NCBI RefSeq assembly: GCF_057098645.1
Contig: NZ_CM169472.1
Direction: 5' to 3' (one strand)
Length of the DNA: 64,000 nucleotides
Position numbers: made by a program. Shown here piece after piece: positions 15,001-21,000 of the stretch. The first letter of the stretch is position 1. Every line of letters starts with the position of its first letter.

Positions 15001-18000
15001 TAATCAGTTCAAACAGACGGTGAGTTTCACGGGAGGAGAGGGCAGCGGTGGGTTCGTCCATCACCAGAATGCGGCTGTTGCGATGCAGCGCGCGGGCGAT
15101 TTCGACCTGCTGTTGCTCGGCAATGGTCAGCATCATGACTTTATCGCTGGCGTTAAACTGCGCGCCGAGGCGGTCGATCACTCTTTGCGCCTGCACCAGC
15201 ATCTCTTTACGCTGCACCAGCCCGCCGTGGGAAAGCTCGCTACCGAGAAAAATATTTTCTGCCACCGTCAAATTGGGTGCCAGCTGCATCTCCTGATAAA
15301 TCAGCGTAATACCGGCACTTAAGGCATCTTTTGGCGTGCGAATGTGAAAGGGCTTGCCGTCTATGAGGATCTCGCCGCTGGTGGCGGTATACGCCCCCGC
15401 CAGCACCTTCATCAGCGTGCTTTTTCCCGCGCCGTTTTCCCCCATCAGGGCATGGATCTCGCCAGGGTAGACCGTCAAATCCACCCCTTTGAGCGCATAA
15501 AATTTGCCGAAGGCTTTGGCAATATTGCGCATCTCCAGAACTGGCCTGCTGTTCATGGTGGACTCCTGCGAGGTTGTCGATATCAGCACTCCATCACAGG
15601 AAAGTAAATGCAAAATGTCAGAAGCCGTTCATATTTGTCATATTGCGATTTTTCTTCACGGAGCGTGATATGGCGCACCCCGGACGTCACTTTTTTGCCA
15701 GCGCGCGCGGGCGATTGCTGCTTTTGAATTTGCTGGTGGTGGCGGTGACGTTGATGGTCAGCGGCGTGGCGGTAATGGGCTTTCGTCATGCCAGCCAGAT
15801 GCAGGAGCTGGTGCAGCAGCAAACGGTGGATGATATGACCGGCAGCCTGAATCTGGCGCGCGACACGGCAAACGTGGCAACGGCGGCGGTGCGATTGTCG
15901 CAGGTGGTGGGAGCGCTGGAATATAAAGGCGAAGCCGAGCGGTTGCAGGAGACACAGCGGGCATTAAAAAGCTCGCTTGCACAACTGGCGAACGCGCCTT
16001 TAGCGCAGCAGGAAGCCGGGCTGGTGACGCGCATCATCACGCGTAGCAACGAACTGCAAACCAGCGTCGGCGGTATGCTGGAGCGCGGGCAAAGGCGGCA
16101 TCTGGAGCGCAACGCGCTGTTAAGTTCGCTGTATCAAAACTTAAGTTATCTGCGGCATCTGCAAAAAGTCACTCACGCGCAAGATGATATTTTGCTTAAC
16201 GAGATGAACCGACTAATTGTTGCCGCTATTGCCACCCCCGCGCCGCAGGCGATTATTCATCAACTGGTCGGGGTAATGTCTGCGTTGCCGACCCACAGCG
16301 ATACGCCATTGGTTAATACGTTACTCAATGATTTCAATGATGAAATGCGTAAACTCGCGCCGCTTTCTGCCGCTCTGGAGCAAAGCGATCTGGCAATCAG
16401 CTGGTATATGTTTCACATCAAAGCGCTGGTGGCGATCCTCAATGGCGACATCAACCGTTACGCCGAACAGGTGGCGACGCTCTCCGGTCAGCGTGTGGCG
16501 CAAAGTTACCAGGATTTGCGCTCCGGCGAGAGGGTGATCATGATTTTCGCCCTGTTAGCGGTGGTGATCACCGCGTTTGCCGGCTGGTATATCTATCGCA
16601 ACCTCGGCACTAACCTGACGGCGATTTCCCGCGCCATGAGCCGCCTGGCGCACGGCGAAGCGGACGTCACTTTTCCGGCGTTACAGCGGCGTGATGAGTT
16701 GGGTGAACTGGCGCGCGCCTTTAACGTTTTTGCCCGCAATACCGAGTCACTCGAACGAACCTCACGGCTGCTAAAAGAGAAGACCACGCAGATGGAGATT
16801 GCCCAAACTGAGCGGCAGGGGTTGGAAGAGGCGCTATTACACAGCCAGAAACTGAAAGCGGTCGGGCAACTGACGGGCGGGCTGGCCCATGATTTTAATA
16901 ATCTGCTGGCGGTGATTATTGGCAGCCTGGAGCTGGTGAATCCGGACTCGCCAGACGCGCCGCGAATACAGCGGGCGCTGCAAGCTGCCGAACGTGGGGC
17001 GCTACTGACACAACGACTGCTGGCGTTTTCCCGCAAGCAGTCCTTACATCCGCAAGCCGTTGAACTGAAAACATTGCTGGAAGAGTTAAGCGAATTAATG
17101 CGCCACTCCTTACCGGCAACGCTGGCGCTGGAGATTGAAGCGCAGTCTCCGGCGTGGCCCGCGTGGATTGACATCAGCCAACTGGAAAATGCCATCATCA
17201 ACCTGGTGATGAACGCCCGTGACGCGATGGAAGGGCAGACGGGAATCATCAAAATTCGTACCTGGAATCAGCGCGTTACTCGCAGCAGTGGGCAGCGTCA
17301 GGACATGGTGGCACTGGAGGTCATCGATCATGGCAGCGGTATGTCGCAGGCGGTGAAAAGCCAGGTATTTGAGCCATTCTTTACCACCAAACAGACGGGC
17401 AGCGGCAGCGGGCTGGGGTTGTCGATGGTCTATGGTTTTGTGCGCCAGTCCGGTGGGCGCGTTGAAATTGAAAGCGCGCCGGGGCAGGGGACAACGGTCA
17501 GATTACAGCTTCCCCGCGCGCTGACGGCGGCGAAAAACCTATCGCCAGCGGCAGTAGAACAGGCTTCTGTCAGCGGCGATAAACTGGTGTTAGTGCTGGA
17601 AGATGAAGCCGCGGTGCGCCAGACCATCTGCGAACAGTTGCACCTGCTGGGCTATTTGACGCTGGAAGCAAGCAGCGGCGAACAGGCGCTGGATCTGCTG
17701 GCGGCATCAGCAGAAATCGATATTTTTATCAGCGATTTAATGCTCCCCGGCGGCATGAGCGGCGCAGAAGTGGTCAATGCGGCCCGCAAACTTTACCCGC
17801 ACCTGACGCTGCTACTCATCAGCGGTCAGGATTTACGCCCCAGCCATAACCCCGCGCTGCCAGACGTGGCGCTGTTGCGCAAACCCTTTACCCGTGCGCA
17901 GTTGGCGCAGGCGCTGGGGCAAATTGAGGGATGATTTTCAGAATTTATCAAGAGGCCTGAAGCAAATGTGCTGCTATTGTGAGCAATTCTGTTCTGAATG

Positions 18001-21000
18001 GGATATAAAAGGAATTATGCCAGTACTGACAAGAGGCGATTCACATATGATCGTGATGCCAACCACCTATAGCGATTTCAGTGTTTGTATTAGACACTGA
18101 ACAAGGGGCATTTTGGCCTTATGATGGCACGAAAGTGATCTACGATGGCGGTTGCATTCCGGAAGAGCGTATCTGGAGTATTTCACCGGATCAAAAATGT
18201 CATGGCATTGTGCTGGTGGCGGAAAATAAACAGCGAGCTAACCAGCTAATGGAAGAGTCTGCGCCTTACCGAATTTGAGATTACTCCGCTACTCCGGTCA
18301 TTCACACTCAACTAACGTTAAGCCAGTCCATCGCAGAGACTGGCTTATGAAACCTTACTCCACGCTTTTTCTTTTCAGCCTGCTCACGCTGACCACCGTA
18401 CCGGCCCAGGCCGATATTATCGACGACACCATTGGCAATATTCAGCAGGCGATTAACGATGCTTATAACCCTGACCGTGGGCGAGATTATGAAGATTCGC
18501 GCGACGACGGCTGGCAGCGTGAAGTGAGCGACGATCGGCGCAGACAATATGACGACCGCCGTCGCCAGTTTGAAGATCGTCGCAGGCAACTGGACGATCG
18601 CCAGCACCAGCTTGATCAGGAGCGTCGGCAGCTAGAAGATGAAGAGCGGAGAATGGAAGATGAGTATGGGCAATGATGTTGGGTATGGAGCAGGCATCGC
18701 CCCTCTGGGGAGAGGGTTAGGGTGAGGGGGCCAGCACGCACATTCCCTCTCATCACGCCACCCCAATCTCCATCCCATCAAACCCCGCCTCAAACCCCGA
18801 CGGCAGTGTGTTTTCCATCAGCCATGCATCAAACTGATGGCTGATGTGCGTCAGAATCACGCGCGGCGAGCGGATAACCTGATTCAGCGCAAGCACGGTA
18901 TTTAAATCACAGTGATTACGCGGTGCATCCTCGCACGGCGGGTGGCTGCAATCAATCACCATTACCTGCGGCTGATTATTGCGTAAAAATTTCAGCGTTT
19001 TTTCCGGCAAGCCAGCGGTGTCAGACAGCCACGCCACCCGGCTGTGCGCCGTTTCCAGCAGATAACCGAAGGTCAGTTTTGAGTGGTTGAGCGGCAGGGG
19101 CGTGACCTGTAACCCCTGCAAATCAAACACCACAAACGGTTCCACCGTGTGGCTGAAATCAAGCAGGTCCGGATGTTTAAACAGATCGTCGCAGCCCTGT
19201 TCATCCGGCGGGCCGTAGACCGGGATCGGATCGCCCACGCCCCAGCGCAGCGGAAACAGCCCCTGGACGTGATCCATATGGTAGTGCGTCAGCAAAAACT
19301 GCTGGAACGATCCTGGCGACCAGCGAGCGGTGAGATCGTGCAGCCCGGCGTCGATCAGGGTGATCGCCTCGTTAAACTTCACTACGCCGCTGCACGGTTG
19401 GCGGCGATAGTGCGGTGAGCGCCGCGCTCTGGCGCAGGCCGCACACTCGCAGCCCCATGCCGGAACGCCCTGTGCGCCGCCGGTGCCGGTGAGCGTGAGG
19501 GTCAGGCTCATGTTACAGCGCCTTCGTGAAGCGGAAGTGGCTCTGCTCGTAGCCTTCGCGCAGATAGAAACGGTGTGCGTCGTGGCGCTTCACGTTGGTC
19601 GAAAGCTCGGTCATTTCGGCCCCGGCCTGGCGGGCTTCTTCTTCTGCCCACGCCAGTAACTTACTGCCGACGTTCAGACCGCGCGCCTGCGGCATCACCA
19701 CCAGTTCCTGAATTTCGCCGATCCAGTTGACATGATGCAGATGAAACTGCAAATGCAGGCCGATCATGCCGACAACTTCGCCATCCAGCAGCGCCAAATG
19801 GTAGCGCATGTTCGGGTCGCGTAGGTTAGCGTTAAAGCCCACGCGAAACGCGTGATGGTCAAACTCCGCCTGTTTTAGCTCACAAATCAGCGCGTAAACC
19901 GCGTCGGTGTCGTACTGCGTGGCCGGGCGAAGCTCACAAGCAGGCATGGTGTTTCTCCTTCTGATGAATCAGCGTCAGCAGCGTGTCGACCGACTGGCGC
20001 AGGCTACCGTCATTATTGAGCGTATGGCAATCCTGTGGAGTATAGCGGGCAGCGCGCGCCAGCCGGGCGTTAATTTCACTGGCGTTTTCGCGTCCACGGT
20101 TTTCCAGGCGCTGGCGCAGGATCTCTGGCGACACCTGTAAGCAGATGGGCAGCAGCGCCGATGCATAGCGCGCCCGCGCCTGCGGCAGATGGGCGCGTGA
20201 GCCGTTGACCAGCACGTCGAATCCGGCGTGCAGCCAGAGGTCAATCTCGACGCCGACGCCATAATACAGACCGTTGGCGTGCCAGCTTAAGGCCAGCAGA
20301 TTTTGCCCCGCGCGGGTAAAAAACTCCTGCTCGCTCAGGGCGATATGGTTTTCGCTTCCAGCGCTGGCATCGCGCGTGATGTAGCGATGCGCCACCAGTA
20401 GCTGCGCCTGTTCCCGCAGGCGGAGTTCCGCCAGCAGGCTGTCTTTCCCGGAGCCGGACGGCCCCATTAACCAAATCAGTTTTCCCGTCATCAGAACACC
20501 CTTTTACCCTGACGCCAGACGTGGTCGATATGAATGTGATTGCCCTTGCGATGCGCCAGCACCAGGTCCGCGCGATTGCCCTCGCCAATCACCCCGCGAT
20601 CCTGGAGATTAAGCGCTTGCGCCGGATTTTTAGTCACCAGCCTCACCGCCTGCGGCAGCGTAAAGCGGTTGCTCTGGTCATCGGCCACGCGGAACGCCGC
20701 ATCCAGCAGGCTGGCGGGGTAGTAGTCGGAAGAGAGGATATCCAGCAGGCCAAGCTGCGCCAGTTCACTGGCCGCCACGTTGCCGGAGTGCGAACCGCCG
20801 CGCACGATATTCGGCGCGCCCATCAGCACGTTCATGCCATGCTTGCGCGAGGCTTGTGCCGCTTCGAACGTGGTGGGAAATTCGGCGATCACGCTGCCAA
20901 GCTGGTGGGATTCGGCAACGTGGGCGTGCGTGGCGTCATCGTGGCTGGCGAGGGCAATTTGTCTTGCGCGGCACAGGGCGGCGATAGTTTCGCGATTCGG

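What the first reader, a model, noticed from the sequence alone, without database searches (positions are those of the whole stretch)
17935..18346. Right island junction contains unassigned short ORFs
About 410 bp between the kinase stop and yjdP hold two short ORFs (17894..18100, 68 aa; 18081..18278, 65 aa, GTG start) that I cannot assign to any family, and no REP or terminator. They may be relics of the insertion or replacement event or small accessory proteins.
Basis: seen in the sequence. Interest (0 to 1): 0.3.

Follow-up and report, generated by a model that had tools for sequence, protein, structure and literature searches.

The report
Broken acetyltransferase gene beside island kinase
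The two unassigned short ORFs are the two halves of one acetyltransferase-like gene wrecked by a 401-base internal deletion, so this is an ordinary pseudogene that public annotation already flags.

Summary
The kinase stop is at 17934 and the yjdP ATG at 18347, leaving a 412-bp gap. Both ORFs sit at the stated coordinates. No REP, canonical terminator or Rfam match lies between them.

They are not orphan genes. The interval is colinear with a 633-bp, 210-aa "N-acetyltransferase" gene that is intact in six complete E. coli genomes (e.g. 14EC033, WP_032282010.1). It has 84%-identical 210-aa orthologues just downstream of the same kinase in Leclercia and Lelliottia.

The window lacks exactly 401 bp of that gene, with the junction at 18073|18074. 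This removes codons 10-142, including the whole GNAT signature, and shifts the frame.
- ORF1 carries only the true 5' end (ATG 18047, or more likely 18017) plus an 8-codon frameshifted tail.
- ORF2 is the orphaned 3' end. RefSeq annotates window 18075-18278 as a pseudogene "missing N-terminus".

The island is OI167 (lmvR-lmuKAIZYX-lmvK). Of about 410 E. coli genomes that carry it:
- 374 have no trace of the gene (O157:H7 type).
- about 27 carry this deletion.
- 2 carry other truncations.
- 6 keep it intact.

Verdict: a decaying accessory gene of the island, not junction debris and not small proteins. Interest is low.

The parts
15670..17934 (+). lmvK, the hybrid sensor histidine kinase/response regulator of island OI167 (context, upstream neighbour)
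   Evidence: ORF ending at 17934. RefSeq CDS WP_032315807.1 in the identical O145 locus maps to window 15670-17934. Island named OI167, kinase LmvK, in PMC10128022.
17935..18016 (+). Native spacer between lmvK and the acetyltransferase-like gene
   Evidence: Identical in the allele with the intact gene. Alignable with Leclercia and Lelliottia upstream regions.
18017..18073 (+). 5' fragment of the acetyltransferase-like gene: 19 codons from ATG 18017 (MPVLTRGDSHMIVMPTTYS), or 9 codons from the RefSeq start ATG 18047
   Evidence: Colinear with L002 up to 18073 with one synonymous SNP at 18061. The MPVLxxGxSxM extension is conserved in Yersinia and Buttiauxella homologues, including an AGA->CGT Arg codon swap.
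18073..18074 (.). Deletion junction: 401 bp of the gene are missing between these two bases, with no microhomology
   Evidence: Base-by-base comparison with the intact allele gives left colinearity to 18073, right colinearity from 18074, overlap 0, and length difference 401 (alignment).
18074..18100 (+).
   Evidence: Translation from 18047 or 18017. 401 is not a multiple of 3.
18075..18278 (+). 3' fragment of the gene: codons 144-210 plus stop.
   Evidence: RefSeq pseudogene I3Y_RS25615, 'GNAT family N-acetyltransferase, incomplete, missing N-terminus', at L001 6141-6344, which is window 18075-18278. The translation equals the C-terminus of the intact protein apart from I/V at the last residue.
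18279..18346 (+). 68-bp spacer upstream of yjdP, a diverged homologue of the K-12 rpiB-yjdP spacer. The conserved block TTGAGATTACTCCGCTACT at 18275-18293 overlaps the stop codon and the first 15 bases of this spacer. Hairpin at 18319-18347.
   Evidence: Same 68-bp length in K-12, O157:H7 and the window, with 32-35/68 identities against about 17 in shuffles. Block found once in each of 6 loci and once in the window. Inverted repeat and RNA fold.
18347..18676 (+). yjdP (DDRRRQL repeat protein), downstream neighbour. Core-genome identity to K-12 resumes about 30 bp inside it
   Evidence: RefSeq CDS in the identical locus. Sliding identity and alignment.

Best explanation
The interval is a dead gene. 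The OI167 mannose/lyxose island (lmvR-lmuKAIZYX-lmvK) originally carried one more gene just downstream of the kinase lmvK. That gene encodes a 210-220 aa GNAT-fold N-acetyltransferase-like protein of unknown substrate.

In the lineage of this window (E. coli O145:H28 type), a single 401-bp deletion removed codons 10-142 and two bases of codon 143. This takes out the whole acetyl-CoA-binding core.

Because 401 is not a multiple of three, ribosomes starting at the native start run out of frame and stop after 8 more codons, giving a 17- or 27-residue peptide. The last 67 codons remain in their old frame but have lost their start and ribosome-binding site. The two overlapping ORFs in different frames are the mechanical signature of this frameshift.

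Shown here: colinearity with the intact allele, the junction, the frameshift, loss of the GNAT signature, and repeated independent loss of the gene in other E. coli. Inferred: that neither fragment makes a functional product, and that the loss is neutral decay.
For: - The 412-bp interval matches 33 complete E. coli genomes over at least 80% of its length. RefSeq labels the match a GNAT family N-acetyltransferase, and a partial pseudogene in the 100%-identical O145 genome examined.
- In six genomes the same flanks enclose an extra 401 bp and an intact 633-bp CDS, WP_032282010.1.
- The junction is at 18073|18074. The length difference is exactly 401 bp, and there are only 2 SNPs elsewhere.
- The intact form is ancestral. 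It has full-length 210-aa homologues at 80-86% identity, including ones named from Leclercia, Lelliottia, Enterobacter and Silvania, and at 50-59% identity from Buttiauxella, Yersinia and Cedecea (alignment).
- In Leclercia the gene order is the same: ABC transporter, kinase, this gene, yjdP, phnP. In Lelliottia it also follows the kinase.
- The only GNAT signature lies at residues 80-118, inside the deleted part. Neither window ORF matches any Pfam or NCBIfam family.
- No Shine-Dalgarno sequence precedes GTG 18081 or GTG 17894.
- Census of 5426 complete genomes: kinase present in 410; O157:H7-type junction without the gene in 374; this deletion in about 27 (33 minus 6); a different whole-gene deletion in TR01; a C-terminal truncation in R32_14_1F.
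Against: Nothing here measures expression, so a peptide from either fragment cannot be formally excluded. The retained C-terminal 67 residues are among the most conserved in the family, with many invariant columns. Apart from the deletion the remnant has accumulated no further lesions (2 SNPs against the intact allele). The event is therefore recent, and absence of decay cannot be used either way. The count of 27 is derived by subtraction, because 5 of the 35 records were not listed.
Confidence: 0.95

Rival explanations
1. ORF2 (18081-18278), and perhaps the short N-terminal peptide, are expressed as stand-alone small accessory proteins that kept or gained a function after the deletion.
For: The C-terminal third of the family is highly conserved (invariant V146, F147, L149, D150, F156, P158, G161, Y166, G168, I171, P172, E173, I176, W177 and others). 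The remnant frame is still open. The native start and its upstream region are intact.
Against: The only in-frame start is a GTG with no Shine-Dalgarno sequence. In the model the fragment is one core strand plus a low-confidence tail (block-mean pLDDT 58-77 for residues 151-190), not an independent domain. The homology search returned no stand-alone protein of about 65 aa. The gene is lost completely or truncated differently in most island carriers. RefSeq calls it a pseudogene.
Confidence: 0.03
2. The window form is ancestral, and the 'intact' allele arose by insertion of 401 bp that happened to create a longer ORF.
For: The short form is commoner in E. coli than the long one (about 27 against 6 genomes).
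Against: The long form is colinear over all 210 residues with orthologues in at least seven other genera at 50-86% identity, and conservation runs through the 401-bp segment. That segment holds the GNAT core. The short form breaks the reading frame.
Confidence: 0.01
3. The interval matters mainly as regulatory DNA or RNA for yjdP (promoter, 5' UTR or read-through from lmvK), and the ORFs are irrelevant.
For: The 68 bp before yjdP keep their exact length and a 19-bp block across three otherwise diverged E. coli alleles and Leclercia. A stable hairpin ends on the A of the yjdP ATG. No terminator separates lmvK from yjdP.
Against: This concerns only 18275-18346 and does not explain 17935-18274, which is demonstrably gene remnant. 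No promoter-like site above chance was found. It is compatible with, not an alternative to, the pseudogene reading.
Confidence: 0.3

Closest known systems
RefSeq pseudogene I3Y_RS25615 (E. coli O145 RM9872), 'GNAT family N-acetyltransferase, incomplete, missing N-terminus'
   Same: 100% identical sequence. Its coordinates map to window 18075-18278.
   Different: The annotation covers only the 3' fragment. The 5' fragment (18017/18047-18073), the exact 401-bp junction and the frameshifted tail are not annotated.
WP_032282010.1, N-acetyltransferase of E. coli 14EC033 (intact allele; also in XJ34, XJ6-3 and CUWW06, with near-identical copies in 100416 and OkiPb01695)
   Same: Same locus and same flanks. 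99.5% identity outside the deletion.
   Different: Carries the 401 bp that the window lacks, so it encodes the full 210-aa protein.
210-aa GNAT family N-acetyltransferases of Leclercia and Lelliottia (P0006, P0022)
   Same: 84% and 83% protein identity to the intact E. coli allele. The gene lies immediately downstream of the orthologous hybrid kinase. In Leclercia it is also followed by yjdP-phnP.
   Different: Intact. In Lelliottia the gene is bracketed by a 63-bp direct repeat of the kinase 3' end and is followed by the als operon instead of yjdP.
OI167 genomic island of EHEC O157:H7 EDL933 (lmvR-lmuKAIZYX-lmvK; Yang et al., mBio 2023, PMC10128022)
   Same: [quoted passage not shown] The kinase 3' region is about 99.7% identical up to window 17922.
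   Different: In O157:H7 the kinase is fused directly to the 68-bp yjdP spacer, with a different last few codons and no trace of the acetyltransferase gene. The paper's main text does not mention an acetyltransferase.

Membership tests
Disrupted-gene remnant (pseudogene) | Colinear with an intact homologous gene at the same locus, apart from a discrete lesion | tested here: met
   Alignment with L002 shows identity on both sides of a single 401-bp gap.
Disrupted-gene remnant (pseudogene) | The lesion destroys the reading frame or essential parts of the product | tested here: met
   401 bp is not a multiple of 3. Codons 10-142, including the only GNAT signature (residues 80-118), are gone.
Disrupted-gene remnant (pseudogene) | No functional product is made | not testable with these tools
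   This needs Ribo-seq, proteomics or genetics. Only the absence of a Shine-Dalgarno sequence before GTG 18081 was seen.
GNAT (Gcn5-related N-acetyltransferase) superfamily - intact allele | Sequence signature of the acetyl-CoA-binding motif A (Pfam Acetyltransf_1) | tested here: inconclusive
   The intact E. coli protein scores 20.5 bits against a cut-off of 20.7, at residues 80-113. 18 of 25 homologues match at E<=0.01, best 1.2e-5. No NCBIfam model matches.
GNAT (Gcn5-related N-acetyltransferase) superfamily - intact allele | GNAT fold | tested here: met
GNAT (Gcn5-related N-acetyltransferase) superfamily - intact allele | Acetyl-CoA-dependent acyl transfer to a defined substrate | not testable with these tools
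   No characterised relative. No PDB sequence relative at a meaningful E-value.
GNAT superfamily - the window's two ORFs as they stand | Any GNAT signature in the encoded peptides | tested here: not met
   There are 0 Pfam and 0 NCBIfam families for either ORF at E<=1. The core is in the deleted segment.
Independent small accessory protein genes | Conserved as a stand-alone ORF with its own start signals in other genomes | tested here: not met
   Most homologues are about 203-220 aa, with some shorter partial calls of 122-178 aa, and none is a stand-alone protein of about 65 aa. No Shine-Dalgarno sequence. The upstream 51 codons of ORF1 overlap the kinase 3' end and spacer.
OI167 island (lmvR-lmuKAIZYX-lmvK) | lmvK and the lmu transporter/isomerase genes adjacent to yjdP in place of als-rpiB | tested here: met
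   The identical O145 locus is annotated as D-lyxose/D-mannose isomerase, ABC transporter (3 genes), hybrid kinase, then yjdP and phnP. K-12 has alsCAB-alsR-rpiB there. Named in PMC10128022. The left end of the island was not examined.
REP element / intrinsic terminator | REP-like palindromic repeat, or a GC-rich stem followed by a T-run | tested here: not met
   None in 17935-18346. The 10-bp hairpin at 18319-18347 lacks a T-run.

The most novel reading that the evidence does not exclude
The gene whose wreck lies here was a working ninth member of the ancestral lmv/lmu (OI167) module. It would be a kinase-linked GNAT-fold enzyme with a conserved C-terminal extension, acting on a sugar, metabolite or regulator of the mannose/lyxose pathway. 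Under this reading its repeated independent removal in EHEC lineages (O157:H7, O145:H28, TR01, R32_14_1F) was selected rather than neutral.
Probability: 0.12. Interest if true: 0.35.

Novelty: already known. Interest (0 to 1): 0.1.

Why it matters
There is little to follow up in the window itself. The finding removes two apparent orphan ORFs from consideration and corrects the picture of the island's right edge. The O145-type OI167 is about 340-350 bp longer than the published O157:H7 form because it still holds the stump of an extra gene.

The modest wider point is comparative. The ancestral island, as still seen in Leclercia and in six E. coli genomes, included an uncharacterised GNAT-fold gene after lmvK. 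E. coli has lost it at least four separate ways. Anyone studying LmvK/LmvR signalling or mannose/lyxose use in enterobacteria might want to test the intact gene.

Tried and rejected
- Rfam scan of 17500-19000 at E<=1 found nothing.
- NCBIfam found nothing, even for the intact protein.
- PDB sequence search gave only chance-level hits, E>=0.5.
- The promoter/terminator scan gave one promoter-like site at 18098-18125, equal to the shuffle expectation, so it is not used as evidence.
- I looked for microhomology or direct repeats at the 401-bp deletion junction to explain its mechanism. The overlap is 0 bp and no flanking repeat exists in the E. coli allele.
- I looked for a simple repeat-mediated origin of the O157:H7 junction between the AATTGAG strings at the kinase and acetyltransferase 3' ends. 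The O157 sequence (GGGGCAA|GAGAATTGAGAATCC) does not fit a clean crossover, and the 68-bp spacer is a different, about 50% diverged allele. The history of that junction stays unresolved.
- I considered the interval as the true island/backbone breakpoint and rejected it. Diverged homology to K-12 begins at the stop codon (18275), and core-level identity resumes only near 18380 inside yjdP.
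Full report
**Observation**

The window around the finding reads as described. 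The long + strand ORF for a hybrid sensor histidine kinase/response regulator stops at 17934. The yjdP ATG is at 18347, so the gap is 412 bp.

Between 17935 and 18346 the scans found:
- no terminator-like site;
- one promoter-like hit, no more than shuffles give;
- no Rfam family at E<=1;
- no REP-like repeat.

The one notable structure is a perfect 10-bp inverted repeat at 18319-18347. Its 3' arm ends on the A of the yjdP ATG. It folds stably as RNA (z = -2.8) but is not followed by a T-run.

ORFs of 65-68 aa are not remarkable by themselves. The same 8-kb listing holds 77 ORFs of at least 30 aa.

**What it is**

A megablast of the 412 bp against 5426 complete E. coli genomes found 35 genomes with a match, 33 of them covering most of the interval. 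The annotation under every such match was "GNAT family N-acetyltransferase" or "N-acetyltransferase".

In the 100%-identical O145 genome that was examined (RM9872), RefSeq marks a partial pseudogene. It is labelled "incomplete; missing N-terminus" and lies at positions that map to window 18075-18278.

In a second group of genomes the match splits into two pieces spanning 813 bp. There the annotation is an intact 633-bp CDS, WP_032282010.1, of 210 aa.

Aligning the two forms shows identity on both sides of a single gap. A base-by-base comparison gives these details:
- The junction lies between window 18073 and 18074.
- The missing length is exactly 401 bp.
- There is no microhomology at the junction.
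- Only two SNPs occur elsewhere in the interval: 18061, which is synonymous, and 18273, which changes the last residue between I and V.

The deletion removes codons 10-142 and two bases of codon 143, so the frame shifts.
- From the annotated start ATG 18047 the reading is MIVMPTTYS + DFSVCIRH + stop at 18098-18100.
- The old frame continues from 18075 as ISVFVLDTEQ...APYRI, with the stop at 18276-18278.

ORF2 is the orphaned C-terminus. Their 20-bp overlap in different frames is the footprint of the frameshift.

**Direction of the event**

The long form is ancestral. The intact protein has full-length 210-aa homologues at 80-86% identity, including ones named from Leclercia, Lelliottia, Enterobacter and Silvania. 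It has 203-217-aa homologues at 50-59% identity, including ones named from Buttiauxella, Yersinia and Cedecea. Conservation runs straight through the segment missing from the window.

In Leclercia the gene order is the same as here: sugar ABC transporter, hybrid kinase, this gene, yjdP, phnP-phnI. In Lelliottia the gene again follows the kinase. In Buttiauxella the more distant homologue lies elsewhere.

**The true start**

The protein and DNA alignments suggest the real start is ten codons upstream of the RefSeq start, at ATG 18017. The extension MPVLTRGDSH is kept in the Yersinia and Buttiauxella homologues. In Buttiauxella the Arg codon AGA is replaced by CGT. This preserves the residue while destroying the Shine-Dalgarno-like AAGAGG. 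That makes the protein 220 aa and the N-terminal remnant peptide 27 residues. It does not change the conclusion.

**What the intact gene encodes**

- Pfam Acetyltransf_1 scores 20.5 bits against a cut-off of 20.7, over residues 80-113.
- 18 of 25 homologues match the same family at E<=0.01, best 1.2e-5.
- NCBIfam has no model for it, and the PDB holds no sequence relative.
- An AlphaFold model from the 25-sequence alignment has mean pLDDT 79.
- Foldseek gives only weak HAT1 hits.

So the intact protein is a divergent GNAT-fold protein of unknown substrate, with a conserved C-terminal extension. The window has lost the entire signature region. Neither of its ORFs matches any family.

**Context and census**

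The surrounding genes are a D-lyxose/D-mannose isomerase, a three-gene ABC transporter, the hybrid kinase, then yjdP and the phn operon. These identify the island as OI167 (lmvR-lmuKAIZYX-lmvK). Yang et al. [quoted passage not shown] The main text of that paper does not mention an acetyltransferase. K-12 has alsC-alsA-alsB-alsR-rpiB at this position.

Among 5426 complete E. coli genomes:

| State of the locus | Genomes |
|---|---|
| Kinase 3' end present | 410 |
| O157:H7/O55:H7-type junction: kinase fused directly to the 68-bp yjdP spacer, diverging from the window at 17923 | 374 |
| Native kinase end plus downstream sequence | 35 |
| - intact gene | 6 |
| - this 401-bp deletion (33 minus 6; all 23 listed one-piece hits are 100% identical) | about 27 |
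| - TR01: a different deletion removing roughly 17959-18305 | 1 |
| - R32_14_1F: a pseudogene "missing C-terminus" | 1 |

The gene has thus been inactivated or removed in at least four different ways in E. coli. That is what a dispensable gene under relaxed selection looks like.

The window itself is closest to O145:H28 RM12761 and RM13516, at 99.9% over 7 kb in one piece.

**Where the island junction really is**

Compared with K-12, sequence to the left of about 18275 has no counterpart.

The 68 bp between the acetyltransferase stop and yjdP have exactly the same length as two other spacers: the K-12 rpiB-yjdP spacer and the O157:H7 lmvK-yjdP spacer. They are only 32-35/68 identical, against about 17 in shuffles.

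A 19-bp block, TTGAGAwTnnTCCnCTACT, overlaps the stop codon of whichever gene lies upstream. It is shared by all three E. coli alleles and Leclercia.

Core-level identity (92-100%) to K-12 resumes only near 18380, inside the yjdP signal-peptide region. Identity to O157:H7 resumes near 18345.

The breakpoint is also not a feature of the two ORFs.

**Mechanism and rivals**

The best-supported account is a non-functional gene remnant (confidence 0.95).

Stand-alone function for ORF2 is unlikely (0.03), for these reasons:
- The only start is a GTG with no Shine-Dalgarno sequence.
- The fragment is not an independent domain in the model.
- No stand-alone homologue of about 65 aa was found.
- Other lineages discard the region altogether.

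An insertion origin of the long form is excluded by the orthologue alignment (0.01).

A regulatory role for the last roughly 70 bp upstream of yjdP is plausible. It is compatible with, not a rival to, the pseudogene reading.

**Verdict**

The feature is ordinary and already flagged in RefSeq. Interest is low.

Noticed in passing
L008 5822-5884 and 6647-6709 (Lelliottia, CP141606.1): A 63-bp direct repeat (95% identical) of the kinase gene's 3' end brackets an 825-bp unit holding the acetyltransferase-like gene. This looks like a cassette inserted at, or duplicated from, the kinase 3' end. No such repeat is present in the E. coli or Leclercia loci.
   Followed up: partly
window 18275-18346; L004 4797-4868; L005 3629-3700: The spacer before yjdP is exactly 68 bp in K-12, O157:H7 and this window, but the three alleles are only about 50% identical. 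They share one 19-bp block, TTGAGAwTnnTCCnCTACT, that includes the stop codon of three unrelated upstream genes (rpiB, lmvK, the acetyltransferase). This may be a hypervariable yjdP leader or promoter with a conserved core. Its function is unknown.
   Followed up: partly
window 18319-18347: A perfect 10-bp inverted repeat (TAAGCCAGTC/GACTGGCTTA, 9-nt loop) forms a stable RNA hairpin whose 3' arm ends on the A of the yjdP ATG. It could occlude yjdP translation initiation or stabilise the upstream transcript. It is not a canonical terminator, because no T-run follows.
   Followed up: partly
window 18017-18049: The RefSeq start of the acetyltransferase-like gene (ATG 18047 equivalent) is probably 10 codons too short. 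The upstream MPVLTRGDSH is conserved at protein level out to Yersinia and Buttiauxella, with a synonymous AGA->CGT change.
   Followed up: yes
window 20491-21627 versus L001 8557-9279: The window has a full-length 1137-bp phnM, like RM12761 and RM13516. Most O145 genomes carry a 723-bp phnM (414 bp shorter), so their phosphonate C-P lyase operon is likely defective. O157:H7 TW14359 has a frameshifted phnO.
   Followed up: no
L011 1919-2533 (E. coli R32_14_1F): In this goat isolate the locus is further rearranged. A low-molecular-weight protein tyrosine phosphatase gene sits after yjdP, and phnP is reduced to a frameshifted fragment.
   Followed up: no
window 18690-18745: Just after the yjdP stop lies a G-rich repeat-like stretch (GCCCCTCTGGGGAGAGGGTTAGGGTGAGGGGGCC). 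From memory it resembles the E. coli intergenic 'box C'-type repeat. This is where a repeat element sits, not in the interval under study.
   Followed up: no
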